A stretch of 64,000 nucleotides of DNA, from the IMG/VR virus record IMGVR_UViG_3300031111_000011, positions 1 through 64,000 of that record. One strand, 5' to 3'. Both the position numbers and the translations under genes were made by a program. Shown here piece after piece: positions 365 to 64,000 of the stretch (within the stretch, counting starts at the first letter, position 1; every line of letters begins with the position of its first letter). Under the pieces are notes generated by a model. That model was not told the DNA's origin. It searched no databases and saw only the letters and a list, made by a program, of their open reading frames with translations. The DNA is from a virus.

Positions 365-370
365 CCCCAG

Positions 371-1510: not shown

Positions 1511-1541
1511 CCCTTCAACCTAAGCACAAGGAGCACAGACT

Positions 1542-10465: not shown

Positions 10466-10719
10466 GAATTCAACTCACTCCAGAGGAGATCGACGGACTG
10501 AAGACGTGGTTGGCGTACCCAAAGAAGGTCCGCAGAGGGGAATGTCCGTTTGTCTTTGTGCCGGGGAATACCTGTGCTCGTATCTGCCGCATGGTTTTTC
10601 CGGGTGATGAACTCGGCCTGTGCCCCTGTGACCAAGAGGGCGCAGACCATAAAAAAATCTATGAAGTTGCACGAGAAGGTGCGGAAAGGGGGTACATCAC
10701 AATTGGACTCGGACATTAA
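10462..10719 (+). CDS. hypothetical Cys-containing protein (85 aa)
   Basis: ATGA overlap; internal Met of listed ORF 10375-10719. Confidence 0.45.
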   Translation: MRIQLTPEEIDGLKTWLAYPKKVRRGECPFVFVPGNTCARICRMVFPGDELGLCPCDQEGADHKKIYEVAREGAERGYITIGLGH

Positions 10720-11713
10720 TGGCACGGTGATTTTTCTGACACCGTTTGGATCGCATCTCTACGGTACATCCACTCCGGAGTCGGATCTGGACTACAAGGG
10801 GGTGTATCTGCCGACAAAGGAGCAGATCCTGATCGGGAAGATCCCCAAGACTATCACTCGAAACACCAAGGTCGGAGAGGGGAAGAACAGCAAGGAAGAC
10901 ATTGACTTTCAACTTTATTCTCTCCCCTACTTTGTGGACCTTCTGGTCCAGGGTGAAACGTCGGCTATCGACATGATCCATGTCCGAAAGGATCAAGCTC
11001 TCGTGTGGACGGATGAGTGGGAACGGCTGCACCGCAACCGTCACATGAGCTACAGCAGAAATATGAAGGCGTTCGTCGGGTATGCCCGTAAACAAGCGGC
11101 CAAGTACGGGGTCAAAGGCAGTCGCCTTGCAGCCATGCAAGACGTCCTTGAATACCTGATGGCCTATATCCAGAAGGAGATTCTGTATGATTATGAACGT
11201 GATACCAAACTTCGAGACGTATGGGATGATCTTCCTGATGGTGATCATATTCATCGTCTTGATCCGACTGATCGAACTCCTTATCGCATGTATCAGGTCT
11301 GTGGGAAGAAGTTTATGGAGACAGTCAAGATTCGAGAAGTCTACGCTTCGATCAAGAAGTCCTATGATCAATACGGTCACCGGGCAGAACTGGCGAAGAA
11401 GAATCAGGGCATCGACTGGAAGGCAGTATCCCACGCACTCCGTGCGGCTTACCAACTGGTGGAAATCTTTGGGTCCGGGGATCTGGCCTTTCCACTCGCT
11501 GATGCGGCTTATCTGCGGAAAGTGAAGGAAGGCTCACTGGACTGGACCTCCTGGGTTCAACCCCACCTGGAGGAAATGATGGGCCGGGTGGAGTGTATGG
11601 CCTCTCTCTCCAAATTCCCAGAACAAGTGGACCGGACCTTCTGGAACAATCTGACTATCGACATCATGGAAACGTGGTTACTTACTCAAACTGTAGGAGG
11701 TGAATTATGCTGA
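10661..11713 (+). CDS. nucleotidyltransferase (Pol-beta/minimal NTase fold) of unknown specificity (~350 aa)
   Basis: TPFGSHLYGTSTPESDLDYKG fits hG[GS]-x9-13-D-x-[DE]; a third acidic motif EDIDFQLY lies ~45 aa downstream; start uncertain (ATG 10661 overlaps upstream gene). Confidence 0.55.
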   Translation: MKLHEKVRKGGTSQLDSDINGTVIFLTPFGSHLYGTSTPESDLDYKGVYLPTKEQILIGKIPKTITRNTKVGEGKNSKEDIDFQLYSLPYFVDLLVQGETSAIDMIHVRKDQALVWTDEWERLHRNRHMSYSRNMKAFVGYARKQAAKYGVKGSRLAAMQDVLEYLMAYIQKEILYDYERDTKLRDVWDDLPDGDHIHRLDPTDRTPYRMYQVCGKKFMETVKIREVYASIKKSYDQYGHRAELAKKNQGIDWKAVSHALRAAYQLVEIFGSGDLAFPLADAAYLRKVKEGSLDWTSWVQPHLEEMMGRVECMASLSKFPEQVDRTFWNNLTIDIMETWLLTQTVGGELC

Positions 11714-21962: not shown

Positions 21963-21969
21963 GAGGTAC

Positions 21970-26422: not shown

Positions 26423-26438
26423 TTCTCAATATTGAAAA
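26423..26438. promoter_or_regulatory. palindromic element TTCTCA-atat-TGAAAA (family copy 6)
   Basis: Directly upstream of SD aaaaggagg of rtcB. Confidence 0.45.
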
Positions 26439-26446
26439 GGAGGACT

Positions 26447-27661
26447 ATGGAAAAGGTCATGTTTTCATCAGGCAGAATCCCTGCCTACTCATGGTTACCA
26501 GTGGACAAACTGGAGGAAGGCGCTCTGGAACAGATCCAGGCTTGCACTGCCCACCCCAAGGCTTACCACCACATGGCTGTGATGCCCGACTGTCACCAGG
26601 GATATGGGATGCCCATTGGCGGTGTGGTTGCCCTGGACGGCGCAATCAGCCCCAACATGGTGGGGGTGGACATCGGCTGTGGGATGAGTGTGGTCCGCAC
26701 CAACGCCAAATTCGTTCACACTTATCAAATCAAGGAAATCCTGAACCGACTCAAGACCATGGTTCCTGTCGGTGAGGGGAAGTTTCGATCTGACCCCGTC
26801 TCCTGGCCCAAGTGGGTGGAGTATCTGGACAAGGTCAAGGAGCGTCCTGACTGGATGAAGGGCTCTAACTGGCATCGGTTCAAGTGCAGCATGGGAACTC
26901 TGGGAGGTGGGAACCACTTTCTGGAGCTTCAGCGGGATGAAGAGGGTTACCTCTACATGATGCTCCACTCCGGTTCCCGTGGCCTGGGGTACGCCATTGC
27001 CAAGTACTACAACGAACTGGCCCAGACCTACTGCGTCAACCTAGACATCCCCAACAAAGATCTGGCTTACCTGCCGACCGATCACAAGTGGGGGCAAGCC
27101 TACATCCGGGACATGAACTTCGCCCTGGCTTTTGCCAAGGAAAACCGCAGGGTCATGATGGATGCCTTCAAATTCGCTTTCTTCCACGTTCTTGGATCTC
27201 CTGTCCGGGAGGACATTGATGTTGTCGATGAGATCGACATCCACCACAACTACGCGGCATTGGAGCACCACTTCGGCAAGGATCTGTGGGTTCACCGGAA
27301 AGGCGCGACTTCGGCCCAGTCTGGACAACTGGGGATCATTCCCGGTTCCATGGGAACCCACTCCTACGTCGTCGCTGGTAAGGGGAACCCGGACTCCTTC
27401 AAGTCCTGCTCCCACGGTGCTGGTCGAGTGAAGGGTCGGATGGCCGCTACTCGTGAACTCGACCGGATGGAGCAGGAGAGGAAGATGGACGGCATTGTCT
27501 TTGACGGGTTCAAAACCCTGAAGAAGGGTAAGCTGAAAGGTGCGTATGACCTGGGCGAAGCCCCTGATGCCTACAAAAATATTGATACTGTCATGTGGCA
27601 CCAGGGGGATCTGGTGGACGTGGTAGTAAAACTCAAACCGATAGGAGTCTTGAAAGGGTGA
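26447..27661 (+). CDS. rtcB: RNA-splicing ligase RtcB (3'-phosphate/5'-OH RNA ligase, 404 aa)
   Basis: RtcB signatures HMAVMPDCHQGYG, GGNHFLELQ, MLHSGSRGLG, CSHGAGR; ATG 4 nt after SD. Confidence 0.9.
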   Translation: MEKVMFSSGRIPAYSWLPVDKLEEGALEQIQACTAHPKAYHHMAVMPDCHQGYGMPIGGVVALDGAISPNMVGVDIGCGMSVVRTNAKFVHTYQIKEILNRLKTMVPVGEGKFRSDPVSWPKWVEYLDKVKERPDWMKGSNWHRFKCSMGTLGGGNHFLELQRDEEGYLYMMLHSGSRGLGYAIAKYYNELAQTYCVNLDIPNKDLAYLPTDHKWGQAYIRDMNFALAFAKENRRVMMDAFKFAFFHVLGSPVREDIDVVDEIDIHHNYAALEHHFGKDLWVHRKGATSAQSGQLGIIPGSMGTHSYVVAGKGNPDSFKSCSHGAGRVKGRMAATRELDRMEQERKMDGIVFDGFKTLKKGKLKGAYDLGEAPDAYKNIDTVMWHQGDLVDVVVKLKPIGVLKG

Positions 27662-36587: not shown

Positions 36588-36997
36588 TACACCCCCTTCT
36601 TGAGCGCCATGAAGTCAGCGATCTTGCGGTAACCGAAAGCAGATCCTACGGCGATGCCGAGCATCCATTGGTACCACTGTGGGCAGGTAGCCAGGGCAGC
36701 AAACCCGACTGTGACCCACCCTGCTCCGGTTGGAAAGAAACAGAGGATGGCAGGAATCGAAAGGACAATGGTAAACCATTCATCCTTCCACCCGCTCTGG
36801 TTGATGGAGGTGTTCTCCCAGGCGATGTCCCCCTGCTGTTGGGTGAGCATCTTATTAATGGTAGCTTCGGTTTTCGCCTCAGTCACCTTGACCTTGGATT
36901 CAACCTCCACCTCTTTGATACGTTGCCGATGTCGGAACCAATCTGTGACGGGGGCCATCAGACCCCCGACCAGATCACCAAGGATCTTACCGACCAC
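36587..36997 (-). CDS. putative holin/membrane protein (136 aa, C-terminal TM helices)
   Basis: Hydrophobic segments FTIVLSIPAILCFF, WVTVGFAALATC, MLGIAVGSAFGY; last of the structural cluster. Confidence 0.5.
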   Translation of the reverse strand: MVGKILGDLVGGLMAPVTDWFRHRQRIKEVEVESKVKVTEAKTEATINKMLTQQQGDIAWENTSINQSGWKDEWFTIVLSIPAILCFFPTGAGWVTVGFAALATCPQWYQWMLGIAVGSAFGYRKIADFMALKKGV

Positions 36998-39900: not shown

Positions 39901-42900
39901 TCGCTGAGTTCATGAGCAAGTTGAAACAGCTTACGACGAGAAGCAGTATGCTCATCAGCCAGGAAGTTGGAGTCCAGAGTGGCAATCTCGAAGTTATGAG
40001 GAGCCTCTTCACCGTCCTTGAGAAGCCCTGCGTCCTTCCGCTCTCTGTACTCAGTCACCTCATTCCTGCTCTTGATGGCTGCGCGTACATTGGAAGCTGA
40101 GAGCAGAACGTGGCCGAAAAAGGCCCGATGCATCCACATATCATTCGTGGTTGCCTCAGTGTCACCTGTGAGAGCCCGGATAAACTCATCGACCTTATAA
40201 TTCTTGCTGAACGTCAGGTCGCCTGACAGAATCCGATCAAGGGCTTTCTTAACATTGGATGGGTATTTGCCTCCTGGTTTGTCACGCTTACCCATAAGGT
40301 AGAGGTACGTGTCCACCGCAAACTGGGTGTTGGTAGTAGCCTTCGCGTTAGGCGAAGTGAGCCCAAGGAGAATGTTGAAGAGAGGGGCATCCTTACCGAA
40401 GACCCTCTTAACTGTCTCCTGGTGGTTACTATACCATGTGACGGCTCGTGGGTTCTCCACGAGAACCTGCTTACACCAGTCCTTGTACTCTTTGTCAGTG
40501 TGTTTAAACTCACTCCACTCTCGCATATCCTTATGGATCAGCCGGTTCTTAGCAACCTCAAGGAGGTTGTCGATGTCCTTCATAGTAAGGGACACTTTGT
40601 CATCCGAGAACCCCATCACCTTTTTCAGCCATGCGTTCATGAACTCAAGGAACTTCTGGAAAACTTGCTTGCGCTTCATCGGGTTAAGTTTTTCGGCCCG
40701 ACGAGCGATCACCTCTTCGACAATGAGTCGGCGTTTCTCGATCTCCTTCTGTTCAGGAGTGAGGTCTTTCCGACCAGCGATATTCTTAAGGTCATCAGCA
40801 TAGAGATCCTTGACCTCCGCGTAAGCCTTCTTGGATTTCCTGATAGCAACATAAGCGCTGTCAAGGAACTCCTTGAAGAGTTTACCCGCCTCGTCCTTGG
40901 TGCTGCGAGTGTCAAACAGCTTGAGAAGCCCCCGGTGACCCACTTGCTCGTGGAGCCACACTTGGGTTGCACGTTTGGTGTCAGACAGACTGTCGGCCAC
41001 AAAGTAGATCTTGTCGGCCTCTTCATCCCACACTGCTTCCACACGGACCCCATTATTGGTGTCCTCTTTGGAGAGACGGTGCTTCTCAGGAAGCTGGTCA
41101 TGAGACTCAACCAATTCAATCTTGGCACCGCGACTACCCACCAGCTTCTGGAGTGTGTGGAGCTTGTCAAAGATCTGCTTTGAGGACTCTTTCTTGAGTT
41201 TACTCCGAGCCATCTTAGCAGCCTTGCTGTAACGAGGATTCCCTTCCTCGTCGTACTTCAGAGGGGTCTTCCTGTCGTTTGTCCCTTCAGGAGCAACATT
41301 CCCCGAACTATCCTCTTCGTAGGTCACACCTTCCTTGAGATCGTGTTTGACTTTAACCTTGCCCGATCCCTCGTACTTCTTCCTACCCCACTCCCTAAGA
41401 GGTTTCTCCTCAACCTCCCAGGTTCCATCAGCCTGTTCCACTGGCTGGTGCGTAAGTGGGTCTTCAAATTTCCGGATAGCTCGTTTGGCTGCTTCCTTGT
41501 TCTTATAGACCTTGCCTACGGTCTTGCTGACCGTAGGGGCTGGTTCGGATGTGACATTCGACGGAACATTTTCAACCTGCTTAGACTTCGGAGTGAGGAT
41601 TTCCTTGGTCTTGTCACCCAGGCCGAGCTCCATGTTGGCTTTCTCAGCCAGAGCCTCAGCGTCAGCTTTACGTTGAGCATCGACCTTCCTGCTTTCCTCA
41701 GCGGCTTTCCGTTTTTCAACAGCAGCTACCTGGGAAGGATGGAGGGCTGGTTTCGCCTCAAGCTTTGCGCCTTCTTTTTGGAAGAAGGCAGCATCGCTCT
41801 TGGCCTTCTGATCCACGACCTTGGCTTGTTGACTTTGTTGTTCTGCCTCGATGCCAGAGCGCACCTCTCCCGCCATCTGGGATTTCTGGACAGATCGTTT
41901 TTGCTCACTTGCCCGTTTAGTAGTCGCTGCTTTCTCAGCGATCTCAGCACGGGCTTTCTCGTTGGCACGAGCTTCACGTTCAGCCTTCCCTCGTGTCGTA
42001 GAAGGGTTCCCAGGTTGTTTACTTGCTTCCTTACGCGCCTGTTCCTGACGAGCTTGAACCTCAAGACGATCCACTTGCTCTTCGAGACGTTGGGCAAGAC
42101 CATCTGTGAGGACACCCATCCGAGGATCTCCAGTGGATGCTTTGAGAGCACTCAGGTCGTACATGACTCCCTTGAGTTTTGGGATACTCTCCTCACCAAC
42201 CACGAGAGCCCGGTGAGCAGCACGGAGAGACTTGGCAGCAGCCTTGTGCTCCTTAACCTCACTACCTTCCAGAGCGGGGAGCATGTTGTGGACAGCACCC
42301 ATCAGCCCTTTCGGAGTAGACACAAAGTCAACGAACTGCTGGAACTTATCTCGTTCCGCAGCAGCAGCGTCCATCTGAGCTTCACGGTTCGCACGTTGAA
42401 GTTGCTCCTCCTGCATACGAGCCTCAGCAGCCATGGTCGCTTCGATCTGGCGCTGACGATCACGAGCAGTCTGTTGACGGGCTACCTCAGCCTCTGCTTG
42501 GAGTTGTTCCTTGGTTTTCGCCTCGACCTTTTCTTCAGTAGATCCTCCAACACTGAAGGCTCCAGCGTCCTCCTCGACCTTGATTCCACCTTGGTCATCA
42601 TCCTTAGCAAAAGCCGTATCCAAATCTTCAGGAACTGAAGGCGCAGTTGTCTTGTTGGTTTCCGCATCAGCATTGGTTTCACCCTCCGCATCTGCTTCGG
42701 TTTGTTTCTTTGCCTTGACATGGGCGATGACATCGAATGGAGCTTTCACAGCAACACCGGCACCTGGGAGAAGCATACCGCCCACTGCACCGATCTTCAT
42801 GCTCTCGTTCCGGGAAGCTTTGAACTCCTCAGAACCTACCACCTCTTTGAAATCGTCAATGAGTTCCCCAACAGGAGCATCAGGGTTGGCCGCATACACA

Positions 42901-43694
42901 TCAGCAGCAGCCTCAGTGTACGCCTGGATTCCTTCTTCAAGACCCTCTCCAGCAGCACCTTGCATAAGCTTGCCGATGTAGAGCTTGAGCTTGTCACCCA
43001 TTTTCAGGGATTTTCCGAAGGCTCCTGCGACACGCTTCAGTGAGTTGATTTGGAGAAGGTTCCCGGCCATTTCAGCAGGGGTTCCAAGGGCAGCGTGAAT
43101 CAGAGCAGCATTGAACCGCACGTCCTCATCCTCGATCCCCTTGTCAATGAGATCCTTGTCCTTTTCCCCCATCATCTGCATGAAGGTAGTGGCTGTTCCG
43201 ACTGGAGCACTGAGTGCAGACGCAACCATAGAGGCACCATAGCGGCTCAGGCCAACACCAGCTTCTTCGATGGTTCCGAGAATGGTCCCTTTTTTGGAAG
43301 GGTCCATTTCATCCACTTTGTCTGGAAGGGCTTCTTCTACAGAGCCAATGTCCTCAACAGCTTGTTTACGCTTTGCTGTGTGTGGGTCATCCTGCGCAGC
43401 TTCAGCGGATCGCTTACGCATCTGAGCAAGATATCCACCGGAATTTAGTTCGACAGGCTTACCATCAAGGGTCCGATCCTGGAGCACCTTTGTGCCGTGG
43501 ATTGCATCTGAAAGGCCAACCCCAAGGGATTGGCCCATTCGTTTCAGGGCACCTGAGTGTTCTTCTTCGGGTTCGGATGTATTGAGTTGCTCGATCTCAG
43601 ACTCATCCACGTCCTCGATCACAAAGGTTTGTGTTTTTGGTTTTTCAGCTTCAAACTCGTCTTGATCGATATCCTCAATAATGAACTTTGCCAC
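36987..43694 (-). CDS. giant internal virion/ejection protein (2235 aa), T7 gp16-like position
   Basis: Acidic N-terminus, glycine-zipper-like hydrophobic patch, long coiled coils; follows two gp14/gp15-like proteins. Confidence 0.7.
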   Translation of the reverse strand: MAKFIIEDIDQDEFEAEKPKTQTFVIEDVDESEIEQLNTSEPEEEHSGALKRMGQSLGVGLSDAIHGTKVLQDRTLDGKPVELNSGGYLAQMRKRSAEAAQDDPHTAKRKQAVEDIGSVEEALPDKVDEMDPSKKGTILGTIEEAGVGLSRYGASMVASALSAPVGTATTFMQMMGEKDKDLIDKGIEDEDVRFNAALIHAALGTPAEMAGNLLQINSLKRVAGAFGKSLKMGDKLKLYIGKLMQGAAGEGLEEGIQAYTEAAADVYAANPDAPVGELIDDFKEVVGSEEFKASRNESMKIGAVGGMLLPGAGVAVKAPFDVIAHVKAKKQTEADAEGETNADAETNKTTAPSVPEDLDTAFAKDDDQGGIKVEEDAGAFSVGGSTEEKVEAKTKEQLQAEAEVARQQTARDRQRQIEATMAAEARMQEEQLQRANREAQMDAAAAERDKFQQFVDFVSTPKGLMGAVHNMLPALEGSEVKEHKAAAKSLRAAHRALVVGEESIPKLKGVMYDLSALKASTGDPRMGVLTDGLAQRLEEQVDRLEVQARQEQARKEASKQPGNPSTTRGKAEREARANEKARAEIAEKAATTKRASEQKRSVQKSQMAGEVRSGIEAEQQSQQAKVVDQKAKSDAAFFQKEGAKLEAKPALHPSQVAAVEKRKAAEESRKVDAQRKADAEALAEKANMELGLGDKTKEILTPKSKQVENVPSNVTSEPAPTVSKTVGKVYKNKEAAKRAIRKFEDPLTHQPVEQADGTWEVEEKPLREWGRKKYEGSGKVKVKHDLKEGVTYEEDSSGNVAPEGTNDRKTPLKYDEEGNPRYSKAAKMARSKLKKESSKQIFDKLHTLQKLVGSRGAKIELVESHDQLPEKHRLSKEDTNNGVRVEAVWDEEADKIYFVADSLSDTKRATQVWLHEQVGHRGLLKLFDTRSTKDEAGKLFKEFLDSAYVAIRKSKKAYAEVKDLYADDLKNIAGRKDLTPEQKEIEKRRLIVEEVIARRAEKLNPMKRKQVFQKFLEFMNAWLKKVMGFSDDKVSLTMKDIDNLLEVAKNRLIHKDMREWSEFKHTDKEYKDWCKQVLVENPRAVTWYSNHQETVKRVFGKDAPLFNILLGLTSPNAKATTNTQFAVDTYLYLMGKRDKPGGKYPSNVKKALDRILSGDLTFSKNYKVDEFIRALTGDTEATTNDMWMHRAFFGHVLLSASNVRAAIKSRNEVTEYRERKDAGLLKDGEEAPHNFEIATLDSNFLADEHTASRRKLFQLAHELSEETDHEWSPREVQAAIWMKVVAEAQGKTLEDFKYDFEYGLTEHRSTKVKGNPWKHDGLTPLEYLKREAGGDPIGQLHKKFNLPEKLYSDQSELDKLYRKHLEDRGIKGKYSKARDLDEATKNLALSEGKTKMDTIKGAAAKILDGVSHPVDTATAFKEWTILTGVDRFRKLKTLEEKLGVGAEMSAYMSRRLHQSMPAIMGTILHHGKPMYNKATHWVITRPDASKGLLSVFEGMDAQTMKAVKARLVADTVDELKRVKGSEFADGIFGKGIDTDAEIAKLRAAADNQLKAGEYDKVKAHLKEYNESVKEFCRKAGIWNPEWEKAWRKDVYIPLNRVFDLEEEGVFGSQAPTALDKFVGTVKALKEGEKEGMIGDPIENLVMNYTYLIDQSLKNISRKKLYNSLKANGMVSEKKGTSAFMTRVLGNPKDLAKRNDLISIRVDGKARYYKVEDNDVFQALTELNHKGLNNTVFQIMGGLKRGLTFGVTANPWFHVRNMTRDTMATGVMKDGFIPVVDTAKGMWATLRNHPDVVEMMSQGGGFSGGYYRADNPLGAQKAIKKAMKGEGKLGKLMELSESATRVALYQNTKAQGKSSFEAAFEAKDILDFGLSGESGFVAVFTRTVPFLNARIQGLYKLAREARKDKRALGMIRKQILYKGAMLSALTLALHAWNTAHDDDEDRKVKYRDLPYHQKWGYYHVYAFGERFQIPMPFEVGAIFSGLPTAMAEAWQEGEYGSVGKFAWKTLRETFAVGFPPLMEEVLAQTDGEGGEDGYTGAPIVSRSKQSLDPDMQWTHRTSKTARGIGKLTGFISPQRLDHFINSQFATVGRLALTLTDHIVMPHLMSFPTDPALVKEDYYLLNGGMMRHDTPGYTKHYERFYDLAAEVDTAFRSWSAKDDLEADNYYDNNQDKIELRPLMNASMKQVRAINKEIDAIQLDEDMTAQEKREEIDLLILERHDIIKETMKESRSGR

Positions 43695-60047: not shown

Positions 60048-61646
60048 TTAGTATCCTGCTCCGCTATCAGCGGGGGTGTTGTATCTGCTGTGACTGGACG
60101 GTCGGGCTTTGCGCTTCATTGTCCGTCCCTCACTCAATTCGAGACAAGCATACTGAAGGGCATCGTGAACGTGGGAATAGATGTTCTTCTCTGGCTTTTC
60201 CTTGTACTTCTCACCGAGACGTACACTCTGGACCACCTTTGCAAATTTGTACTCGCTGATGAATCCCTTACGAAGTGTGTTGGCAGTGAGTTGAGAAAGC
60301 TGGAATCCACTCTGCTTACGAAGAAAGAAGTTCACCGCTTCACGACGAGCCAGTTCGTTGTTTGTCTTGGCGAGTCGAGTGGGTAGTCCCGCCTGGACCA
60401 GAATGTCCATGGCAGACCGCTTGTCATTCTGCGACCTGTTCCGGGCAGCAGGGTCAATGACAAGCTCAAAGTTGAACCGCATGTACTTGTTCTTGATCAG
60501 GGGCCAAAGGTGATCTTCTGCAAACTCCTGAATAGAGGTGTTCTCTGTGACAATCTCGTCAAGGATTATCAGAGATCCTGTCGGAGTGAGTTGGCAGAAA
60601 GCCGCAGCAGGAGTGAGCCCAACGTCCACACCGATGGTGATTGGCAGACCTTCAAGGGGTTTGATTGGGCGGTCGGTCGCGTGGTACTTGTCTTGGTAAG
60701 CCTTGTAGACAGGTCTTCCCTGTCGCAGAGCGCCATAGTTATTCAGGATGAAAATATTCACCCAGTCGGGGTCAGCACCCGCTACCTGATCCACGTAATA
60801 GTCTGGATCAAGATGTTTGAACCAGACGTCAATCAAATCCCCAGTGAGTGTTCCGGATGGGTTCCTTCGGAGTGGAGTCCCGTCCTGGGTGTAGGCTGCT
60901 GCCTGGGCTGGAGGACAAAGCTCAAACAAACCACGGTCTACCGCTTCCCAGTGTCCGAGGTTGTCAGCTTCAGGATTGATCCGATAAAAGTTGTTCTCGG
61001 CATCAGCTACGATCCCATCAGCCTCACTGCACATGAGCAGTGCGGGTGGTTGGTGATAGAAGCTGTGGCGATTGGGCTGCACCTCTTCGGCAAGTCTGTA
61101 CAGCCAGTGATCCACGTCTACAGAGTTGTAGTCGCAGATAATGAAGGGATCGATGGCACCCCCGTCCATAGATGCAGGAAACCGATTGACACGGGATTTG
61201 AGCATCTGGTGGACTCCAGGAGGGATTTCAGCCGCCTCGTTGATGTGGCTTGCGGTCAACTCCAGGGACTGTAGCTTATTGACATCTTCCTCCCGGTCGA
61301 GAGCGATGAAGTTCAACTCCATGTTGACCCTGGTTCCGTCCGGAAGAGGCAACGCAACAGTCCCACGGATGGGCGCACCCATCACGATTTTGATCATGTC
61401 CTTGAACCACTGTTTCCAGGACTTCACGACTGTCGTTGCAAGAGCCGGGTAAGACGCACGAATGATCGCATATCGACTATTCCGAACCCCATCCGAGTCG
61501 GGTACCTGCTTAAGAGCATTCATGAACAGATGAAGGATACATCCACTGGACTTCCCAGATCCCACCGGGCCTCTAACGAAGAGGAACCTGTTGGGATCAC
61601 GATGGACTTTCATGAACGTATTGTTTGCGACATAGTTGATTTGCAT
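60048..61646 (-). CDS. terL: terminase large subunit (532 aa)
   Basis: Walker A VRGPVGSGKSSG near N-terminus; nuclease-domain acidic residues C-terminal. Confidence 0.85.
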   Translation of the reverse strand: MQINYVANNTFMKVHRDPNRFLFVRGPVGSGKSSGCILHLFMNALKQVPDSDGVRNSRYAIIRASYPALATTVVKSWKQWFKDMIKIVMGAPIRGTVALPLPDGTRVNMELNFIALDREEDVNKLQSLELTASHINEAAEIPPGVHQMLKSRVNRFPASMDGGAIDPFIICDYNSVDVDHWLYRLAEEVQPNRHSFYHQPPALLMCSEADGIVADAENNFYRINPEADNLGHWEAVDRGLFELCPPAQAAAYTQDGTPLRRNPSGTLTGDLIDVWFKHLDPDYYVDQVAGADPDWVNIFILNNYGALRQGRPVYKAYQDKYHATDRPIKPLEGLPITIGVDVGLTPAAAFCQLTPTGSLIILDEIVTENTSIQEFAEDHLWPLIKNKYMRFNFELVIDPAARNRSQNDKRSAMDILVQAGLPTRLAKTNNELARREAVNFFLRKQSGFQLSQLTANTLRKGFISEYKFAKVVQSVRLGEKYKEKPEKNIYSHVHDALQYACLELSEGRTMKRKARPSSHSRYNTPADSGAGY

Positions 61647-61648: not shown

Positions 61649-62065
61649 TTACTTAGTTCCGGAGAGTGGAATAACCTTCCCTGCGATAGGAGGAGCAGCC
61701 TTTGGTTGCTCTTGGGTAGGATTGCCAAGCATGAGATTGAGAACAGTTGTGTCCCCAGAACCCAGATTGACTTCGGTGGATTTGAGACGAGGAAAGCAGT
61801 ACCCCATCAGATCTTTCTCGATTGAGCGTCTCCACTTGATCTGATCTTCCAAACCTTCGAGTTCACCTGCCATCATGTAAGTGAAAAGAACCTGATCAAT
61901 CAGATCGAACTGATGGTCTTCCTTCAGTTGCTTCAGGAGAACTTTGGCCCGTTTCTGCTTATTATAGATCTGAGGCTTACGAGGTTTGCGTTTCGCTGCT
62001 TTCTTCTTCGGGGCTTTTTTCTTCGGAGGGGATTGACCTTCAACGGTCCACTCTTGGTCAGACAT
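61649..62065 (-). CDS. terS: putative terminase small subunit (139 aa from Met16)
   Basis: Basic KKKAPKKKAAKRKPRKP DNA-binding-like region; precedes terL with 2-nt spacing; start trimmed to avoid tRNA-Gln. Confidence 0.5.
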   Translation of the reverse strand: MSDQEWTVEGQSPPKKKAPKKKAAKRKPRKPQIYNKQKRAKVLLKQLKEDHQFDLIDQVLFTYMMAGELEGLEDQIKWRRSIEKDLMGYCFPRLKSTEVNLGSGDTTVLNLMLGNPTQEQPKAAPPIAGKVIPLSGTK

Positions 62066-62076
62066 GAAGTTCCTTT

Positions 62077-62151
62077 TGGAAGGGGCAGAAGGAATCGAAC
62101 CTTCCTGCACAGGTTCAAAGCCTGTTGGTTAAGCCGCTCACCCATACCCCT
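62077..62151 (-). tRNA. tRNA-Gln(TTG)
   Basis: 7-bp acceptor AGGGGTA/TGCCCCT, T-arm GGTTCGATTCC, anticodon loop CTTTGAA, CCA encoded. Confidence 0.7.
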
Positions 62152-62157
62152 ATAAGC

Positions 62158-62232
62158 TGGTCAGGGATGCTGGAATCGAACCAGCCGCCCCAAGCTTCCA
62201 AAGCCCAGGAGACTCCTTGCCGTTATCCCTGA
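62158..62232 (-). tRNA. tRNA-like gene, anticodon uncertain (possibly Pro-TGG); irregular stems
   Basis: Good acceptor TCAGGGA/TCCCTGA and T-arm GCTGG-TTCGATT-CCAGC, but D and anticodon arms pair only with several G-U wobbles; possible pseudo-tRNA. Confidence 0.4.
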
Positions 62233-62243
62233 TGATTTGCAGA

Positions 62244-62318
62244 TGGCTCCAGAACCTGGACTCGAACCAGGATTTCAACGGTTAACAGCCGCGCGTGTTA
62301 CCTTGACACTATTCTGGA
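62244..62318 (-). tRNA. tRNA-Asn(GTT)
   Basis: Acceptor TCCAGAA/TTCTGGA, D-arm GTGT-CAAGGTA-ACAC, anticodon loop CTGTTAA, T-arm CCTGG-TTCGAGT-CCAGG, CCA. Confidence 0.7.
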
Positions 62319-62329
62319 GTGAGGAGAGA

Positions 62330-62406
62330 TGGTTGGAGCGAGAGGATTCGAACCCCCACTTAACGGGTTAAAAGCCCGTTGTGCTAACCGTTGACACTAC
62401 GCTCCA
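62330..62406 (-). tRNA. tRNA-Lys(TTT)
   Basis: Acceptor TGGAGCG/CGCTCCA, anticodon arm ACGGG-CTTTTAA-CCCGT, T-arm GGGGG-TTCGAAT-CCTCT. Confidence 0.75.
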
Positions 62407-62416
62407 ACAAAAAAGA

Positions 62417-62492
62417 TGGTCGCACCACCAGGACTCAAACCTGGGTCTGTCGCTTATCAGGCAACTGTTCTAATCTGTTGAACTATGGTGCA
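62417..62492 (-). tRNA. tRNA-Ile(GAT)
   Basis: D-arm GTTC...GAAC, anticodon arm GTTGC-CTGATAA-GCGAC, T-arm CCAGG-TTTGAGT-CCTGG. Confidence 0.75.
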
Positions 62493-62495
62493 ATG

Positions 62496-62569
62496 TGGCA
62501 CCCCGCTAAGGAATCGAACCCTACCAATGCACCGGGTTGGAACCGGGCCGCACCCATGTGCTGCGAGGT
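62496..62569 (-). tRNA. atypical tRNA (possible Trp-CCA) with truncated D-arm
   Basis: Acceptor ACCTCGC/GCGGGGT (1 G-U), T-arm TAGGG-TTCGATT-CCTTA, candidate anticodon loop TTCCAAC; D-region only CAC-ATGG-GTG. Confidence 0.4.
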
Positions 62570-62583
62570 GTGAGATGTAGAAA

Positions 62584-62659
62584 TGGGGTGAGCGGAGGGA
62601 ATCGAACCCTCTACAACAGGGCCACGACCTGTCGGCTCAACCTTTTGCTCTTCGCCCAC
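62584..62659 (-). tRNA. atypical tRNA (possible His-GTG) with short D-arm
   Basis: Acceptor GTGGGCG/CGCTCAC, T-arm GAGGG-TTCGATT-CCCTC, candidate anticodon arm ACAGG-TCGTGGC-CCTGT (C33); a 6-bp hairpin sits in the downstream spacer. Confidence 0.4.
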
Positions 62660-62696
62660 AGTTGGACCACTCACTAAGAGTGGCTCACCCCACGAA

Positions 62697-62796
62697 ATGG
62701 ACGATGACCGTGGGACTCGAACCCACGCTCCCAAGAGGTGTCTCCCGGCGATCAACCCGTAACTGCCCCCCAGTGTGTTATCCAGCTACACCAGAC
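62697..62796 (-). tRNA. ~100-nt tRNA-like gene with ~25-nt internal insertion (isotype undetermined)
   Basis: Acceptor CGATGTC/GTCATCG (6/7), family D-arm GTGT-AGCTGGATA-ACAC, T-arm GTGGG-TTCGAGT-CCCAC and encoded CCA, but the anticodon/variable region is ~25 nt too long. Confidence 0.4.
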
Positions 62797-62808
62797 ATCG
62801 ATATTTGT

Positions 62809-62883
62809 TGGTACTCCCTGATGGAATCGAACCACCCTCTACTGCTTGTAAGGCAGTCGTTATAGCCACTCTACTAAGGGAGT
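62809..62883 (-). tRNA. tRNA-Val(TAC)
   Basis: Acceptor ACTCCCT/AGGGAGT, anticodon arm ACTGC-CTTACAA-GCAGT, T-arm GGTGG-TTCGATT-CCATC, CCA. Confidence 0.75.
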
Positions 62884-62954
62884 ATGTGCCGGTGGCAGTG
62901 ATTAACGACCTTTGCTCTTATCATCGGGACGGTCATGCGAGGACCGGCAGAAAA

Positions 62955-63028
62955 TGGACTCCCTGAGAGGATTCGAACCTCCATCCAACGGTTCGTAGCC
63001 GAATGCTCATCCGTTGAGCTACAGGGAG
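62955..63028 (-). tRNA. tRNA-Arg(ACG)
   Basis: Acceptor CTCCCTG/CAGGGAG, D-arm GCTC-AACGGAT-GAGC, anticodon loop CTACGAA (3-bp stem + 2 mismatches), T-arm GGAGG-TTCGAAT-CCTCT. Confidence 0.6.
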
Positions 63029-63075
63029 TGAGTTGGTTTTGCCCTAAAAATAGGGGCGTTTTTGTGGCAAAACTA

Positions 63076-63151
63076 TGGTCTGCCTGGGAGGAGTCGAACC
63101 CCCTACTCTGGGGGTAGAAACCCCAAGCTCTGTCCGATGAGCTACAGGCAG
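63076..63151 (-). tRNA. tRNA-Arg(TCT)
   Basis: Acceptor CTGCCTG/CAGGCAG, D-arm GCTC-ATCGGACA-GAGC, anticodon arm TGGGG-TTTCTAC-CCCCA. Confidence 0.75.
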
Positions 63152-63156
63152 TGAAG

Positions 63157-63231
63157 TGGAGCCTCGTGGAGGACTTGAACCCCCGTCCCAAGCTTACAAG
63201 GCACGTATTCTACCAGTTGAACTAACGAGGC
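63157..63231 (-). tRNA. tRNA-Thr(TGT)
   Basis: Acceptor GCCTCGT/ACGAGGC, anticodon loop CTTGTAA, T-arm GGGGG-TTCAAGT-CCTCC, CCA. Confidence 0.7.
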
Positions 63232-63238
63232 AAAGAAG

Positions 63239-63312
63239 TGGAGCGGTCACCAGGAATCGAACCTGGATCTGCCATCGGGGAGACAGCTATGCTACCATTA
63301 CACCATGACTGC
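63239..63312 (-). tRNA. tRNA-Gly(CCC) (tentative)
   Basis: Acceptor GCAGTCA/TGACCGC (1 mismatch), D-arm TG-GTGT-AATGGTA-GCAT, anticodon arm GCTGT-CTCCCCG-ATGGC, T-arm CCAGG-TTCGATT-CCTGG. Confidence 0.55.
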
Positions 63313-63323
63313 TCAAAAATTGA

Positions 63324-63400
63324 TGGAGCGGATACAGGGACTCGAACCCTGACCATCTGGTTGGAAGCCAGATATGCTTGCCGTTGAACACCATACCCGC
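63324..63400 (-). tRNA. tRNA-Gly(TCC)
   Basis: Acceptor GCGGGTA/TATCCGC, anticodon arm TCTGG-CTTCCAA-CCAGA (perfect), T-arm CAGGG-TTCGAGT-CCCTG. Confidence 0.75.
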
Positions 63401-63404
63401 TCAG

Positions 63405-63488
63405 TGAGCCAAGGGGAGACTCGAACTCCCAAACCTTCCAGATCAGGGCCATGGTGACCTGGATATGCACCCTATACACCAGCTTGGC
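63405..63488 (-). tRNA. atypical tRNA-like gene with 17-nt anticodon-region loop (10-nt insertion)
   Basis: Acceptor GCCAAGC/CTTGGC, family D-arm TG-GTGT-ATAGGGT-GCAT, T-arm GGGAG-TTCGAGT-CTCCC; anticodon stem TCCAG/CTGGA closes a 17-nt loop containing CCATGGTGACC. Confidence 0.4.
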
Positions 63489-63496
63489 GTGTTCGA

Positions 63497-63572
63497 TGGT
63501 GGACCAAGAGGGACTCGAACCCTCAGCGTCCTCCTTGCAAGGGAGGAGTGTTCCCGATTACACCACCGGCCC
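63497..63572 (-). tRNA. tRNA-Ala(TGC)
   Basis: Acceptor GGGCCGG/TTGGTCC with G3:U70 Ala identity pair; anticodon arm CCTCC-CTTGCAA-GGAGG; T-arm GAGGG-TTCGAGT-CCCTC; CCA. Confidence 0.75.
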
Positions 63573-63661
63573 ACAGGACAGATTTCCTTTTTGACGTCTT
63601 GGGCCAGGAATACTGTCTAAGAACCCAATGGAACCACAGGGGTATCTCCCCATGGCGGTTT

Positions 63662-63735
63662 TGGCGGTCCATACGGGACTCGAACCCGTCTTGCATGATC
63701 GACAGTCACGCACCTTCCCTGATGGCTAATGGACC
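63662..63735 (-). tRNA. tRNA-Asp(GTC)
   Basis: Acceptor GGTCCAT/ATGGACC, anticodon arm CGTGA-CTGTCGA-TCATG, T-arm ACGGG-TTCGAGT-CCCGT, CCA. Confidence 0.65.
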
Positions 63736-64000
63736 GAAAATGTTACCCTGTGTAAAACTCCTCCGCGTTTCCATGGTCACCAGAGGAGAAAACCCGGTCG
63801 CACAGGGGTATCGAAGACTCCGGGTTTTGGCTTATGGCTCGACTCAGGGGAGTTTCACCCCCACACTCTATGGTCACTTTGTCTGACCAGGACCAGGGAC
63901 TTCCATTGGAGTGTTTAAGCAGTGAGCGGTCTTACGGTCATCCGCACTGCGAGTCGCATATGCTTGCTCTCCACTCATAGCGAGAATACTTACAACCATT

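What the first reader, a model, noticed from the sequence alone, without database searches (positions are those of the whole stretch)
62496..63488. Atypical tRNA-like genes within the array: two with insertions, two with truncated D-arms, one irregular
Eleven tRNAs fold canonically (Gln, Asn, Lys, Ile, Val, Arg x2, Thr, Gly x2, Ala). The remainder are unusual.
- 62697-62796 is about 100 nt: perfect T-arm, family-type D-arm and CCA, but about 25 extra nt in the anticodon/variable region.
- 63405-63488 has a 17-nt loop closed by TCCAG/CTGGA.
- 62496-62569 and 62584-62659 have 3-bp D-stems with tetraloops.
- 62158-62232 has irregular stems.
- These could be intron-containing tRNAs, suppressor/decoy tRNAs, or decaying pseudogenes.
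- The tRNA at 63405 carries CCATGGTGACC in its insert, and a near-copy CCATGGTCACC recurs at 63771-63781.
Basis: seen in the sequence. Interest (0 to 1): 0.6.

Follow-up and report, generated by a model that had tools for sequence, protein, structure and literature searches.

The report
Odd tRNA genes in a phage
Three of the five odd genes in this phage's tRNA cluster are real tRNAs (proline, tryptophan, histidine) built on an unusually compact frame, and they complete a set covering all 20 amino acids. The other two are tRNA-shaped RNAs with no usable anticodon arm and no known role.

Summary
The minus-strand array at 62077-63735 carries 17 T-arm-bearing genes. Default ARAGORN and misses exactly the five that were flagged.

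**Three are genuine tRNAs:** Pro(UGG) 62158-62231, Trp(CCA) 62496-62569 and His(GUG) 62584-62659.
- They supply the only three amino acids missing from the phage's other 21 tRNAs.
- They have counterparts in related metagenomic phages, with compensatory base changes in every stem.
- Pro and Trp carry the expected acceptor-end identity bases.
- Their oddity is a clade-wide compact build: a mini D-arm that keeps GG, a 6-7 bp anticodon stem and mostly a short variable loop. This resembles mitochondrial tRNA-Ser(UCN) and tRNA-Pyl.

**Two remain unresolved.**
- 63405-63489 is a clean cloverleaf, apparently related to the neighbouring Gly tRNAs. Its anticodon arm is 9 bp with a 9-nt loop, its acceptor branch is one nucleotide short, and it ends in CA rather than CCA.
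- 62698-62800 has a textbook acceptor stem, D-arm, T-arm and U73-CCA, but 46 poorly structured nucleotides where the anticodon arm should be.
- Neither matches any Rfam family or has a counterpart in about 0.9 Mb of related phage DNA.
- They are most likely non-decoding tRNA derivatives, either recently disabled copies or mimics.

The phage also encodes RtcB and RlaP RNA-repair enzymes.

The parts
62077..63735 (-). tRNA array directly upstream of terS/terL. It holds 12 canonical tRNAs (Asp, Ala, Gly UCC, Gly CCC, Thr, Arg UCU, Arg ACG, Val, Ile, Lys, Asn, Gln) and the 5 atypical genes.
   Evidence: ARAGORN, Rfam tRNA hits, 17 T-arms. In my reading of the sequence, 16 of the 17 genes encode CCA.
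62158..62231 (-). tRNA-Pro(UGG), compact build. C1-G72 and A73-CCA; 3-bp D-stem GGC/GUC with 5-nt loop AAGGA; 7-bp anticodon stem CCUGGGC/GCUUGGG; loop UUUGGAA; 3-nt variable loop.
   Evidence: Relaxed and mitochondrial-mode ARAGORN. The minimum-free-energy fold is this cloverleaf. The L003 counterpart is 82.7% identical. In four phages every pair is kept, with 2-4 pair types at 11 of 22 pairs.
62496..62569 (-). tRNA-Trp(CCA), compact build. A1-U72 and G73-CCA; one connector nucleotide (A8); 4-bp D-stem GCAC/GUGC with tetraloop AUGG; anticodon stem of 4 inner and 2 outer pairs with a bulged U (a C27.U43 mismatch if drawn the standard way); loop UUCCAAC.
   Evidence: ARAGORN at the relaxed threshold and in mitochondrial mode; minimum-free-energy fold. 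L003 and L163 Trp genes share the build, with compensatory changes. No Rfam tRNA hit at E<=10.
62584..62659 (-). tRNA-His(GUG). C73-CCA but T at position -1, so no encoded G-1. 3-bp D-stem, 6-bp anticodon stem, loop UCGUGGC (C33), 3-nt variable loop.
   Evidence: Rfam tRNA 35.9 bits, above the gathering score of 29. Mitochondrial-mode ARAGORN calls His(gtg). Counterparts at L006 7426-7499 and L003 7162-7236 have the same acceptor ends and U33.
62698..62800 (-). tRNA-shaped gene 'X100'. Standard acceptor stem, U8, D-arm, T-arm and U73-CCA, but 46 nt of ill-defined structure in place of the anticodon arm and variable loop. The 3' acceptor/T strand is one nucleotide too long.
   Evidence: Sequence and folds (z = +0.33, with no dominant fold for the centre). 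Best Rfam match is tRNA-Sec at 20.8 bits against a gathering score of 47. ARAGORN solutions are mutually inconsistent. A covariance model finds no counterpart in 0.9 Mb; the nearest hits are Glu-type tRNAs at 23-24 bits.
63405..63489 (-). tRNA-shaped gene 'X84'. 6-bp acceptor stem, D-arm GUGU/GCAU with GG in the loop, 9-bp stem with 9-nt loop (CCAUGGCCC) in place of the anticodon arm, canonical T-arm. The 3' end reads U-CA, so there is no CCA.
   Evidence: Folds. ARAGORN reads it either as Gln(CUG) with a 10-nt insert or as undetermined. No Rfam family matches. The best non-self covariance-model hits are the adjacent Gly(UCC) and the L077 Gly(UCC), at 25 bits. Its D-arm is closest to the two Gly tRNAs.
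63771..63781 (-). Second copy of GGTSACCATGG, in the spacer upstream of tRNA-Asp. The first copy, at 63449-63459, lies inside the X84 arm.
   Evidence: 2 matches against 0.10 expected; absent from all related loci.
26432..27661 (+). RtcB RNA ligase (context: tRNA repair or splicing ligase).
   Evidence: Pfam PF01139, E = 7e-105.
10550..11713 (+). RlaP, an RNA-ligase-associated Pol-beta nucleotidyltransferase (context).
   Evidence: Pfam PF10127, E = 2e-10. Its role alongside phage RNA ligases is described in PMC7824862.

Best explanation
The five atypical genes fall into two classes.

**Class 1: working tRNAs.** These are 62158-62231, 62496-62569 and 62584-62659, decoding Pro(UGG), Trp(CCA) and His(GUG).
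- Inferred route: they are transcribed with the rest of the minus-strand array, cut out by host RNase P and 3'-processing enzymes, already carry CCA, and are charged by host synthetases.
- Together with the phage's 21 canonical tRNAs they give at least one tRNA for each of the 20 amino acids.
- They look odd because this phage clade builds some of its tRNAs on a compact core. [quoted passage not shown] - This is the same structural trade-off seen in mammalian mitochondrial tRNA-Ser(UCN) and tRNA-Pyl.

**Class 2: tRNA-derived genes that cannot decode as they stand.** These are 63405-63489 and 62698-62800.
- Their acceptor, D and T arms are intact, so they are probably excised like tRNAs (inferred).
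- The anticodon branch is replaced by a 27-nt hairpin in one and by a 46-nt poorly ordered segment in the other. Each also has a one-nucleotide error in the length of its acceptor/T strand.
- Most likely they are non-decoding RNAs, either recently disabled duplicates or tRNA mimics. X84 appears to be related to the neighbouring Gly genes.

Shown here: sequence, folds, complementation of the amino-acid set, and covariation. Inferred: expression, processing, charging, and what Class 2 does.
For: **Class 1**
- Default ARAGORN on the phage's own contig gives 21 tRNAs for 18 amino acids, lacking only His, Trp and Pro. Relaxed or mitochondrial-mode ARAGORN reads the three genes as exactly those. Rfam tRNA scores His at 35.9 bits against a threshold of 29.
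- Pro in four phages (window, L003, L077, L045): all 22 stem pairs are standard in all four. Covariation reaches the two 'extra' anticodon-stem pairs and D-stem pair 2.
- The compact build recurs with different sequences and anticodons. Examples are Trp in the window, L003 and L163; the CAU tRNAs at L001 6187-6259 and L077 426-499; and Cys at L162 5201-5271. Their stems are standard-paired apart from the initiator-like C1.U72 and an A.A in L001.
- Identity bases fit what is established for E. coli (my own knowledge): Pro has C1-G72 and A73, Trp has A1-U72 and G73, His has C73 (sequence).
- The review PMC7609411 lists the defining features of the mt-tRNA-Ser(UCN)/tRNA-Pyl type.

**Class 2**
- No Rfam family matches at a meaningful score.
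- ARAGORN gives contradictory anticodons depending on which bases are removed.
- The centre of X100 has no dominant fold.
- X84 is the only gene in the array without CCA (sequence).
- X84's best non-self covariance-model hits are Gly(UCC) tRNAs, and its D-arm is closest to the two Gly genes next to it.
- No counterpart exists in 78-79 related loci, about 0.9 Mb, or in GenBank phages beyond the T-arm.
Against: - There are no expression, processing or charging data for any of the five.
- Covariation rests on only 2-4 counterparts per tRNA.
- Trp gets no hit at all from the Rfam tRNA model.
- His lacks the encoded G-1 that bacterial HisRS normally needs, and it has C33 where its counterparts have the near-universal U33. 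Its efficiency as a decoder is therefore uncertain.
- For Class 2, the 'disabled copy' half of the statement sits uneasily with how intact the stems are. By my count from the folds, 20 of 21 pairs hold in X84 and 15-16 of 16-17 in X100. The acceptor stems are fully diverged from any paralogue yet still paired. That pattern suggests long-term selection on the fold.
- The absence of counterparts may simply reflect the lack of close relatives: the best TerL identity is 62%.
Confidence: 0.6

Rival explanations
1. X84 and X100 are functional, non-decoding tRNA mimics. They would be excised and stabilised like tRNAs and then act as decoys or cofactors. One possibility is soaking up host anticodon nucleases or other tRNA-targeting defences. 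Another is working with the phage RtcB/RlaP RNA-repair module. This would make them analogous to the tRNA-like Y RNAs of Ro60/RtcB operons, or to the stable non-tRNA RNAs in the T4 tRNA cluster.
For: - Nearly all stem pairs are intact despite complete sequence divergence from any paralogue.
- X84 folds into one dominant cloverleaf, 44% of the ensemble.
- The genes are packed tightly in the array with tRNA-like spacing.
- The phage encodes RtcB and RlaP.
- Relatives carry TROVE/Ro60 genes next to tRNA-like elements.
- Bacterial Y RNAs mimic tRNAs and can be cut by RNase P and receive CCA (PMC4201824).
Against: - There is no counterpart in any related locus, so there is no evidence of conservation.
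- The centre of X100 has no stable fold.
- X84 lacks CCA.
- This genome has no TROVE gene, and the module order differs from YrlA.
- No target or partner can be named.
Confidence: 0.22
2. X84 and X100 are intron-bearing pre-tRNAs. The extra 10 nt and roughly 25 nt would be cut out by an endonuclease that leaves 2',3'-cyclic phosphate and 5'-OH ends. The phage RtcB would then join the halves into decoding tRNAs, for example Gln(CUG) from X84.
For: - ARAGORN in intron mode turns X84 into a good Gln(CUG) by removing ACCAUGGCCC. Eight deletion variants give that call at the default threshold.
- The phage has no Gln(CUG).
- RtcB, the tRNA-splicing ligase family, is encoded at 26432-27661.
Against: - There is no bulge-helix-bulge motif, and the inserts are far too short for group I introns.
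- The insert would lie inside the anticodon, not at position 37/38.
- Other deletions in X84 give Val, Leu, Gly, Arg and more.
- X100 yields no convincing tRNA under any single deletion; the best solutions have mismatched stems and no U33.
- No splicing endonuclease was found among the 30 ORFs scanned against Pfam, ten of them also against PHROGs.
- The 9-bp stem of X84 is what any insert at that site would produce, because positions 32/38, 33/37 and 34/36 of GUCUGAU are already complementary (my inference from the sequence).
- RtcB with RlaP is a known phage tRNA-repair pairing (PMC7824862).
Confidence: 0.05
3. All five are decaying pseudogenes left over from an older, larger array.
For: - Default ARAGORN rejects all five.
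- Rfam tRNA rejects four of the five.
- Folding-energy z-scores are unremarkable.
Against: - Pro, Trp and His are the only genes for those amino acids in the genome.
- Their odd build is conserved, with compensatory changes, across phages whose TerL is only 51-62% identical.
- All their stems are fully paired, and CCA is retained.
Confidence: 0.03
4. The Trp(CCA) gene is a recoding tRNA. Its unpaired C27.U43 leaves a 4-bp anticodon stem, like the tRNA-Trp(CCA) variants that read UGA. The phage would use it for UGA readthrough.
For: - C27.U43 is present in the window and conserved in L003.
Against: - Two further outer pairs, with a bulged U, restore a 6-pair helix in both phages.
- The L163 Trp has a clean 6-bp stem.
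- TGA ends 11 of 47 long ORFs, including the portal gene, so there is no sign of wholesale UGA reassignment.
Confidence: 0.07

Closest known systems
Phage tRNA gene clusters (T4/T5-type arrays)
   Same: Densely packed, co-oriented tRNA genes with short spacers, next to the structural and packaging genes. The phage also carries RNA-repair enzymes (RtcB, RlaP), as described for many large phages (PMC7824862).
   Different: This is a phage of about 67 kb with 26 tRNA(-like) genes covering all 20 amino acids. Eight of the 26 fall below the Rfam tRNA threshold. No GenBank phage shares more than single-tRNA similarity.
Compact-core tRNAs: mammalian mitochondrial tRNA-Ser(UCN) and tRNA-Pyl
   Same: One nucleotide between the acceptor and D stems (Trp). 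A 4-5 nt D-loop. An anticodon stem lengthened to 6-7 bp. A 3-nt variable loop (Pro, His). G18G19 and the T-loop are retained, as in mt-tRNA-Ser(UCN) (review PMC7609411; structures).
   Different: These come from a bacterial virus and carry Trp, Pro, His, CAU and Cys anticodons. Not every feature is present in every gene: Trp has a 5-nt variable loop, Pro has three connector nucleotides, and His has a normal-length D-loop. There is no sequence relationship; this is an analogy of architecture.
Bacterial and phage Y RNAs (YrlA) with Ro60/TROVE and RtcB
   Same: These are tRNA-like non-coding RNAs linked to RNA-repair genes. Relatives of this phage carry TROVE genes flanked by tRNA-like elements.
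   Different: This genome has no TROVE gene. X84 and X100 have the normal tRNA order with their ends in the acceptor stem, whereas YrlA runs T-arm, then acceptor-like loop, then D-arm (PMC4201824). There is no GNCGAA motif.
Allo-tRNA-like and other irregular tRNAs (Mukai et al. 2017, as reviewed in PMC7609411)
   Same: Irregular cloverleaves with extra arms or loops. They are found in polycistrons with tRNAs, are not chargeable in E. coli, and have no known function.
   Different: Allo-tRNAs are defined by an 8/4 or 9/3 acceptor/T branch of 12 bp. X100 has 13 positions (8/5 or 7/6) and X84 has 11.
Stable RNAs C and D (species 1 and 2) in the phage T4 tRNA cluster
   Same: From memory, not tested here: these are non-tRNA stable RNAs encoded within, and processed with, a phage tRNA cluster, and their function is still unknown.
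   Different: No sequence or structure comparison was possible with these tools. The T4 RNAs are longer, about 120-140 nt.
[quoted passage not shown]
   Same: C27.U43 is unpaired at the top of the standard 5-bp stem in the window and in L003 (PMC13092985).
   Different: The helix continues beyond the mismatch, and TGA is used as a stop codon.

Membership tests
Canonical bacterial-type tRNA (Rfam RF00005 cloverleaf) | Scores at or above the family gathering score (29 bits). | tested here: inconclusive
   His scores 35.9 bits (met). Pro, Trp, X84 and X100 do not reach it; Pro and X100 appear only as weak tRNA-Sec matches (26.9 and 20.8 bits). Four ARAGORN-called tRNAs of the same phage also fail, so the model under-calls this clade.
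Canonical bacterial-type tRNA (Rfam RF00005 cloverleaf) | 7-bp acceptor stem, 5-bp T-stem with a T-loop of GTTCRANYC type, discriminator base, CCA. | tested here: met
   Met by Pro, Trp and His. X100 has one extra nucleotide in its 3' strand. X84 is one nucleotide short and ends in CA (sequence).
Canonical bacterial-type tRNA (Rfam RF00005 cloverleaf) | 5-bp anticodon stem with a 7-nt loop carrying U33 and a purine at 37. | tested here: inconclusive
   Pro, Trp and His have 7-nt loops with a purine at 37. Their stems are 6-7 bp, and His has C33. X84 (9 bp with a 9-nt loop) and X100 (no defined arm) do not meet this feature.
Compact-core tRNA (mt-tRNA-Ser(UCN) / tRNA-Pyl type) | A single nucleotide between the acceptor and D stems. 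| tested here: inconclusive
   Met by the window Trp, the L001 and L077 CAU tRNAs and the L162 Cys. Pro has 3 connector nucleotides and His has 2.
Compact-core tRNA (mt-tRNA-Ser(UCN) / tRNA-Pyl type) | Small D-loop (4-5 nt) and an anticodon stem longer than 5 bp. | tested here: met
   Trp has a 4-nt loop and 6 pairs. Pro has a 5-nt loop and 7 pairs, conserved in four phages. His has a 6-bp stem but a 9-10 nt D-loop.
Compact-core tRNA (mt-tRNA-Ser(UCN) / tRNA-Pyl type) | 3-nt variable loop. | tested here: inconclusive
   Pro and His have 3 nt. The window Trp has 5 nt; the L003 and L163 Trp genes have 3 nt.
Compact-core tRNA (mt-tRNA-Ser(UCN) / tRNA-Pyl type) | L-shape maintained and active in translation. 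| not testable with these tools
   This needs structure probing and charging or translation assays.
tRNA-Sec (RF01852) | 13-bp acceptor/T branch, 6-bp D-stem with 4-nt loop, UCA anticodon, long extra arm, score of at least 47 bits. | tested here: not met
   Best scores are 26.9 (Pro), 20.8 (X100) and 14.7 (X84) bits. No UCA anticodon is present, and X100 has a 4-bp D-stem with a 9-nt loop.
YrlA-type Y RNA | Encoded beside a Ro60/TROVE gene. | tested here: not met
   tblastn with the L003 TROVE protein finds it in L003, L005, L006, L008, L077 and L078 but not in the window. L001 covers the 2.9 kb missing from the window and also has no hit.
YrlA-type Y RNA | Permuted module order (T-arm, acceptor-like stem-loop, D-arm) with a Ro60-binding stem formed by the RNA ends. 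| tested here: not met
   X84 and X100 run acceptor, D, centre, T, acceptor, like tRNA. The family definition comes from PMC4201824.
Intron-containing tRNA (archaeal/eukaryal protein-spliced, or bacterial group I) | Bulge-helix-bulge motif or an intron at 37/38, or a group I intron core. | tested here: not met
   The X84 arm is an uninterrupted 9-bp helix. ARAGORN places the insert at 34/35. The inserts are 10 and about 25 nt, and there is no Rfam intron or ribozyme hit.
Intron-containing tRNA (archaeal/eukaryal protein-spliced, or bacterial group I) | Removing the insert yields one unambiguous, well-scoring tRNA. | tested here: inconclusive
   For X84, Gln(CUG) is the commonest outcome (8 of 34 calls), but Val, Gly, Arg, Ser, His and Leu also arise. 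For X100, 309 variants are called with more than 20 different anticodons, and the commonest (Cys GCA) has a mismatched stem and no U33.
Allo-tRNA | 12-bp acceptor/T branch in an 8/4 or 9/3 configuration, with a long variable arm. | tested here: not met
   X100 is 8/5 or 7/6, and X84 is 6/5 or 7/4. The definition comes from PMC7609411.
[quoted passage not shown] | The 27-43 pair is absent, and the organism carries in-frame UGA codons. | tested here: inconclusive
   C27.U43 is present in the window and L003. However, outer pairs extend the helix, and TGA terminates 11 of 47 long ORFs. Readthrough itself cannot be tested here.

The most novel reading that the evidence does not exclude
X84 and X100 are split-anticodon pre-tRNAs of a bacterial virus. 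Short non-group-I inserts would be removed by endonucleolytic cuts and the halves joined by the phage's own RtcB. That would be a protein-dependent tRNA splicing pathway in a phage, of a kind known only from archaea and eukaryotes. The inserts might keep the tRNAs invisible to host anticodon nucleases until they mature.
Probability: 0.04. Interest if true: 0.9.

Novelty: new variant of a known kind. Interest (0 to 1): 0.5.

Why it matters
**Annotation.** Standard tRNA finders miss a quarter or more of this phage clade's tRNAs, so a phage that in fact covers all 20 amino acids looks incomplete.

**tRNA biology.** A compact-core build was previously associated with mitochondrial tRNA-Ser(UCN) and tRNA-Pyl. 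Here it is used, and conserved, for ordinary amino acids (Trp, Pro, the CAU initiator-like tRNA, Cys) in bacterial viruses.
- This raises the question of whether the altered shape helps phage tRNAs escape host tRNA-targeting nucleases while still being charged.
- It also offers natural scaffolds for orthogonal tRNA design.

**Anti-defence context.** The full tRNA set sits alongside RtcB and RlaP, and relatives also carry Ro60 with tRNA-like RNAs. This points to a small-genome phage lineage heavily invested in protecting or replacing the host tRNA pool. The two tRNA-shaped RNAs without anticodon arms are candidate new parts of that toolkit, if they prove to be expressed.

Tried and rejected
1. 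**GenBank phage search.** The whole array, and X84 and X100 alone, gave only single-tRNA or T-arm matches. The T5-like 'tRNA-OTHER/Sec' hit is a 73-nt UCA tRNA that shares just the T-arm.
2. **Closer relatives.**
   - The best TerL homologues are at most 62% identical.
   - IMG/VR, JGI metagenomes and GTDB genomes gave 69, 80 and 63 loci, mostly without arrays. Genome hits are at most 39% identical.
   - Eleven contig look-ups were made.
   - The only other copy of this phage (L002) is 100% identical, so there is no population variation to use.
3. **Exact-pattern scans of IMG/VR.** Patterns for Pro, the X100 D-arm and X84 with or without its insert returned nothing.
4. **Y RNA idea.** Rejected because there is no TROVE gene and the module order is wrong. 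The GGCAGTTA...GGGTT string in X100 resembles the 5' module of the relatives' Ro60-linked elements only superficially.
5. **tRNA-Sec and allo-tRNA.** Rejected on scores and on stem geometry.
6. **Code change (UGA to Trp).** Rejected because TGA is used as a stop codon.
7. **Antisense targets.** The X84 loop has none in the window. The GGTSACCATGG repeat is only weakly above chance and is not conserved.
8. **Promoter and terminator scan.** The array shows nothing above background.
9. **Folding-energy z-scores.** These are uninformative for all five genes, as is usual for tRNAs.
10. **Splicing endonuclease or Thg1-like enzyme.** None was found among the 30 ORFs scanned against Pfam, ten of them also against PHROGs.


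Full report
**Setting**

The window is most of a circularly permuted phage genome of about 67 kb.
- Its own contig (L001) overlaps both ends of the window at 100% identity. Only 2.9 kb is missing from the window.
- The structural genes are of the SU10 type: portal, adaptor and Phage_capsid_4.
- No GenBank phage resembles the array beyond single tRNAs.
- The closest TerL homologues, all metagenomic, are at most 62% identical.
- The tRNA genes lie on the minus strand at 62077-63735, directly upstream of terS (61649-62110) and terL (60048-61646).

**Checking the observation**

Default ARAGORN tRNAs in the window. A scan for 5-bp T-stems around a TTCRANY-type loop finds 17 in the array and no other convincing tRNA-type T-arm in the window.
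- The 'irregular' gene at 62158-62231 is regular once its anticodon stem is drawn as 7 bp.
- The gene at 62496-62569 has a 4-bp D-stem with a tetraloop.
- The 17-nt loop at 63405-63489 can zip up to a 9-bp stem with a 9-nt loop.
- The motif GGTSACCATGG does occur twice, against 0.10 expected, with 1 of 100 shuffles reaching two.

**Three of the five are real tRNAs**

*They complete the set.* On the full contig, default ARAGORN finds 21 tRNAs for 18 amino acids. The missing three are His, Trp and Pro. Relaxed or mitochondrial-mode ARAGORN reads the genes as follows:
- 62158-62231 as Pro(UGG)
- 62496-62569 as Trp(CCA)
- 62584-62659 as His(GUG)

The Rfam tRNA model scores His at 35.9 bits, above its threshold of 29. 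That three 'defective' genes happen to supply exactly the three absent amino acids is the strongest single argument for function.

*Their acceptor ends fit.* The following agree with established E. coli identity rules (my own knowledge):
- Pro has C1-G72 and A73.
- Trp has A1-U72 and G73.
- His has C73.

All three encode CCA.

*Comparative support.*
- The L003 phage (TerL 62% identical) has a Pro gene 82.7% identical to the window's. It also has Trp and His counterparts.
- I aligned Pro from four phages (window, L003, L077, L045) by structure. All 22 stem pairs are standard pairs in all four. Eleven pairs show two to four pair types. These include both 'extra' pairs that lengthen the anticodon stem to 7 bp, and the middle pair of the 3-bp D-stem.
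- Trp in the window and L003 differs by compensatory changes in the D-stem and the anticodon stem. Both keep the same oddity: C27.U43, followed by two more outer pairs with a bulged U.
- His in the window and L006 shares a 6-bp anticodon stem and a 3-nt variable loop.

**What makes them atypical**

They share a compact core.
- Trp reads: 7-bp acceptor, 1 nt, 4-bp D-stem, 4-nt loop AUGG, 1 nt, 6-pair anticodon stem, 7-nt loop, 5-nt variable loop, standard T-arm.
- Pro has a 3-bp D-stem, a 5-nt loop AAGGA, a 7-bp anticodon stem and a 3-nt variable loop.
- The same build appears in other tRNAs of this clade, with unrelated sequences:
  - an initiator-like CAU tRNA of this phage (L001 6187-6259)
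  - a CAU tRNA at L077 426-499
  - a Trp in L163 that ARAGORN misses
  - a Cys at L162 5201-5271
- The small D-loops usually keep GG, and the T-loops are standard.

A single connector nucleotide, a small D-loop, a lengthened anticodon stem, a short variable loop, and retained G18G19 and T-loop are the features that the review PMC7609411 lists for mammalian mt-tRNA-Ser(UCN). tRNA-Pyl shares most of them. I found no report of this build in phage tRNAs in four literature searches. Those searches cover open-access text only.

Several ordinary-looking tRNAs of this phage also fall below the Rfam threshold: Met, Leu GAG, Ser UGA and Tyr. The clade as a whole has drifted from the general tRNA model.

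**Caveats on the three**
- There are no expression or charging data.
- His has T at position -1 in the window, L003 and L006, so the G-1 that bacterial HisRS normally requires is not encoded.
- The window copy of His has C33 where both counterparts have U33.
- The C27.U43 in Trp recalls the tRNA-Trp(CCA) variants with a 4-bp anticodon stem that read UGA (PMC13092985). However, the helix continues beyond the mismatch, and TGA ends 11 of 47 long ORFs. I rate recoding as unlikely.

**The two unresolved genes**

*X84 (63405-63489).*
- It folds into one dominant cloverleaf. The parts are a 6-bp acceptor stem, a D-arm GUGU/GCAU with GG in its loop, a 9-bp stem with loop CCAUGGCCC, and a standard T-arm.
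- Its 3' acceptor/T strand is one nucleotide short.
- It is the only gene in the array without CCA; it ends U-CA.
- A covariance model built from it finds no counterpart in 0.88 Mb of related phage DNA. Its best non-self hits are the adjacent Gly(UCC) and the L077 Gly(UCC), at 25 bits.
- Its D-arm is closest to the two Gly tRNAs that follow it.
- In the register G1-C72, C2-G71, U73 it carries Gly-type acceptor features. This rests on my knowledge of identity rules.
- ARAGORN's intron mode makes it Gln(CUG) by deleting ACCAUGGCCC. Other 8-11-nt deletions give Val, Leu, Gly, Arg or Ser.
- The extended stem is not evidence of design. In a loop GUCUGAU, positions 32/38, 33/37 and 34/36 are already complementary, so any insert at that point produces it (my inference).

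*X100 (62698-62800).*
- It has a textbook acceptor stem, U8, a D-arm with A14, G18G19 and A21, a T-arm and U73-CCA.
- Its 3' strand has one nucleotide too many.
- The 46-nt centre has no dominant fold (z = +0.33). Competing options include a hairpin like a variable arm (CCGGGAG/CUCUUGG) or an 8-bp stem (CUGGGGGG/CCUCUUGG).
- ARAGORN's solutions (Arg ACG with an 'intron', Cys GCA, Ile GAU) all need mismatched stems or lack U33.
- Its model finds no counterpart. The nearest hits are Glu-type tRNAs at 23-24 bits.

*Both genes.* Neither matches any Rfam family.

**Weighing the readings of X84 and X100**

Against simple decay:
- Nearly all stem pairs are intact although the stems share no sequence with any paralogue. 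This implies a long period under selection for the fold.

Against function:
- No conservation can be shown.
- The acceptor-branch length is wrong in both genes.
- X84 lacks CCA.
- The centre of X100 is disordered.

Against splicing:
- There is no bulge-helix-bulge motif.
- The insert in X84 would lie within the anticodon.
- The 'spliced' products are ambiguous.
- No endonuclease was found.

The phage does encode RtcB (26432-27661, Pfam E = 7e-105) and RlaP (10550-11713). This pairing is already described as a phage tRNA-repair module (PMC7824862), so it does not by itself argue for splicing.

The Y RNA reading fails for two reasons. The genome has no TROVE gene. YrlA RNAs also have a permuted module order (PMC4201824). 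Several relatives do carry TROVE with adjacent tRNA-like elements.

**Verdict**

The finding is real.
The 'truncated D-arm' genes are functional members of a conserved compact-core tRNA type in a phage clade, and they complete a full 20-amino-acid set in a 67-kb genome.
- The two genes with enlarged central regions remain unexplained. They are best described as non-decoding tRNA derivatives. I put roughly even odds on recently disabled copies versus functional mimics, and a small chance that they are spliced.
- I rate this as a new variant of a known kind, of moderate interest.

Noticed in passing
window 26432-27661 (+) and 10550-11713 (+): The phage encodes an RtcB RNA ligase (Pfam E = 7e-105) and an RlaP nucleotidyltransferase, a known phage tRNA-repair pairing. 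Together with a full tRNA set, this suggests heavy investment against host tRNA-targeting defences.
   Followed up: partly
L003 4817-5079 and 5235-6764; L006 5010-5364 and 5590-7074; L077 1-427; L005 1-452: Related phages carry a TROVE (Ro60) gene flanked by tRNA-like elements. In these, a conserved 5' module (GGCAGTGA...GGGTTACTTCG) replaces the acceptor 5' strand and D-arm, so they are likely Y-RNA-type partners. The window phage has no TROVE gene.
   Followed up: partly
L001 6347-6422 and 6532-6609 (outside the window); L003 7709-7785; L005 2183-2260; L077 739-816; L162 1775-1851: Every tRNA-Leu in this phage clade is 76-78 nt long, so it lacks the long variable arm that bacterial tRNA-Leu normally has.
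   Followed up: no
window 62584-62660 (-); L003 7161-7236; L006 7425-7499: tRNA-His has C73 but T at position -1 in all three phages, so G-1 is not encoded. The window copy also has C33 instead of the near-universal U33. No Thg1-like enzyme was seen among the 30 ORFs scanned.
   Followed up: partly
L001 6187-6259 (outside the window); L077 426-499: The only CAU tRNA of this phage looks like an initiator: it has a C1.U72 mismatch and three G-C pairs at the base of the anticodon stem. It uses the same compact build. No elongator Met or Ile2 tRNA was seen.
   Followed up: partly
window 1-1540 (= L001 3173-4714): About 1.5 kb has no ORF longer than 76 aa and no Rfam hit at the gathering score. A non-coding stretch of similar size lies at L003 2374-4285. 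Its function is unknown.
   Followed up: no
window 63449-63459 and 63771-63781 (-): The palindrome-rich 11-mer GGTSACCATGG occurs once inside the X84 arm and once in the spacer upstream of the array (0.10 expected). It is absent from all related loci. It could be a protein-binding or endonuclease site, or chance.
   Followed up: partly
window 34648-36009 (-) and 36987-43694 (-): The first ORF is integrase-like (Phage_int_SAM_1 and Phage_integrase domains), which hints at a temperate lifestyle. The second is a 2235-aa ORF next to the tail and structural genes.
   Followed up: no
window 62660-62697, 62884-62954, 63029-63075, 63573-63661 (-): Four spacers in the array are much longer (38-89 nt) than the usual 5-12 nt, and each can form a hairpin. 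They may be processing or termination signals, or remnants of lost genes. None passes the simple terminator scan on the correct strand.
   Followed up: partly
window 28874-30322, 22916-24823, 21886-22404, 25859-26383 (+): Auxiliary metabolism genes: a NAMPT-like nicotinamide phosphoribosyltransferase, a class II ribonucleotide reductase, a dUTPase, and a dATP/dGTP diphosphohydrolase domain protein. The last hints at modified DNA nucleotide metabolism.
   Followed up: no
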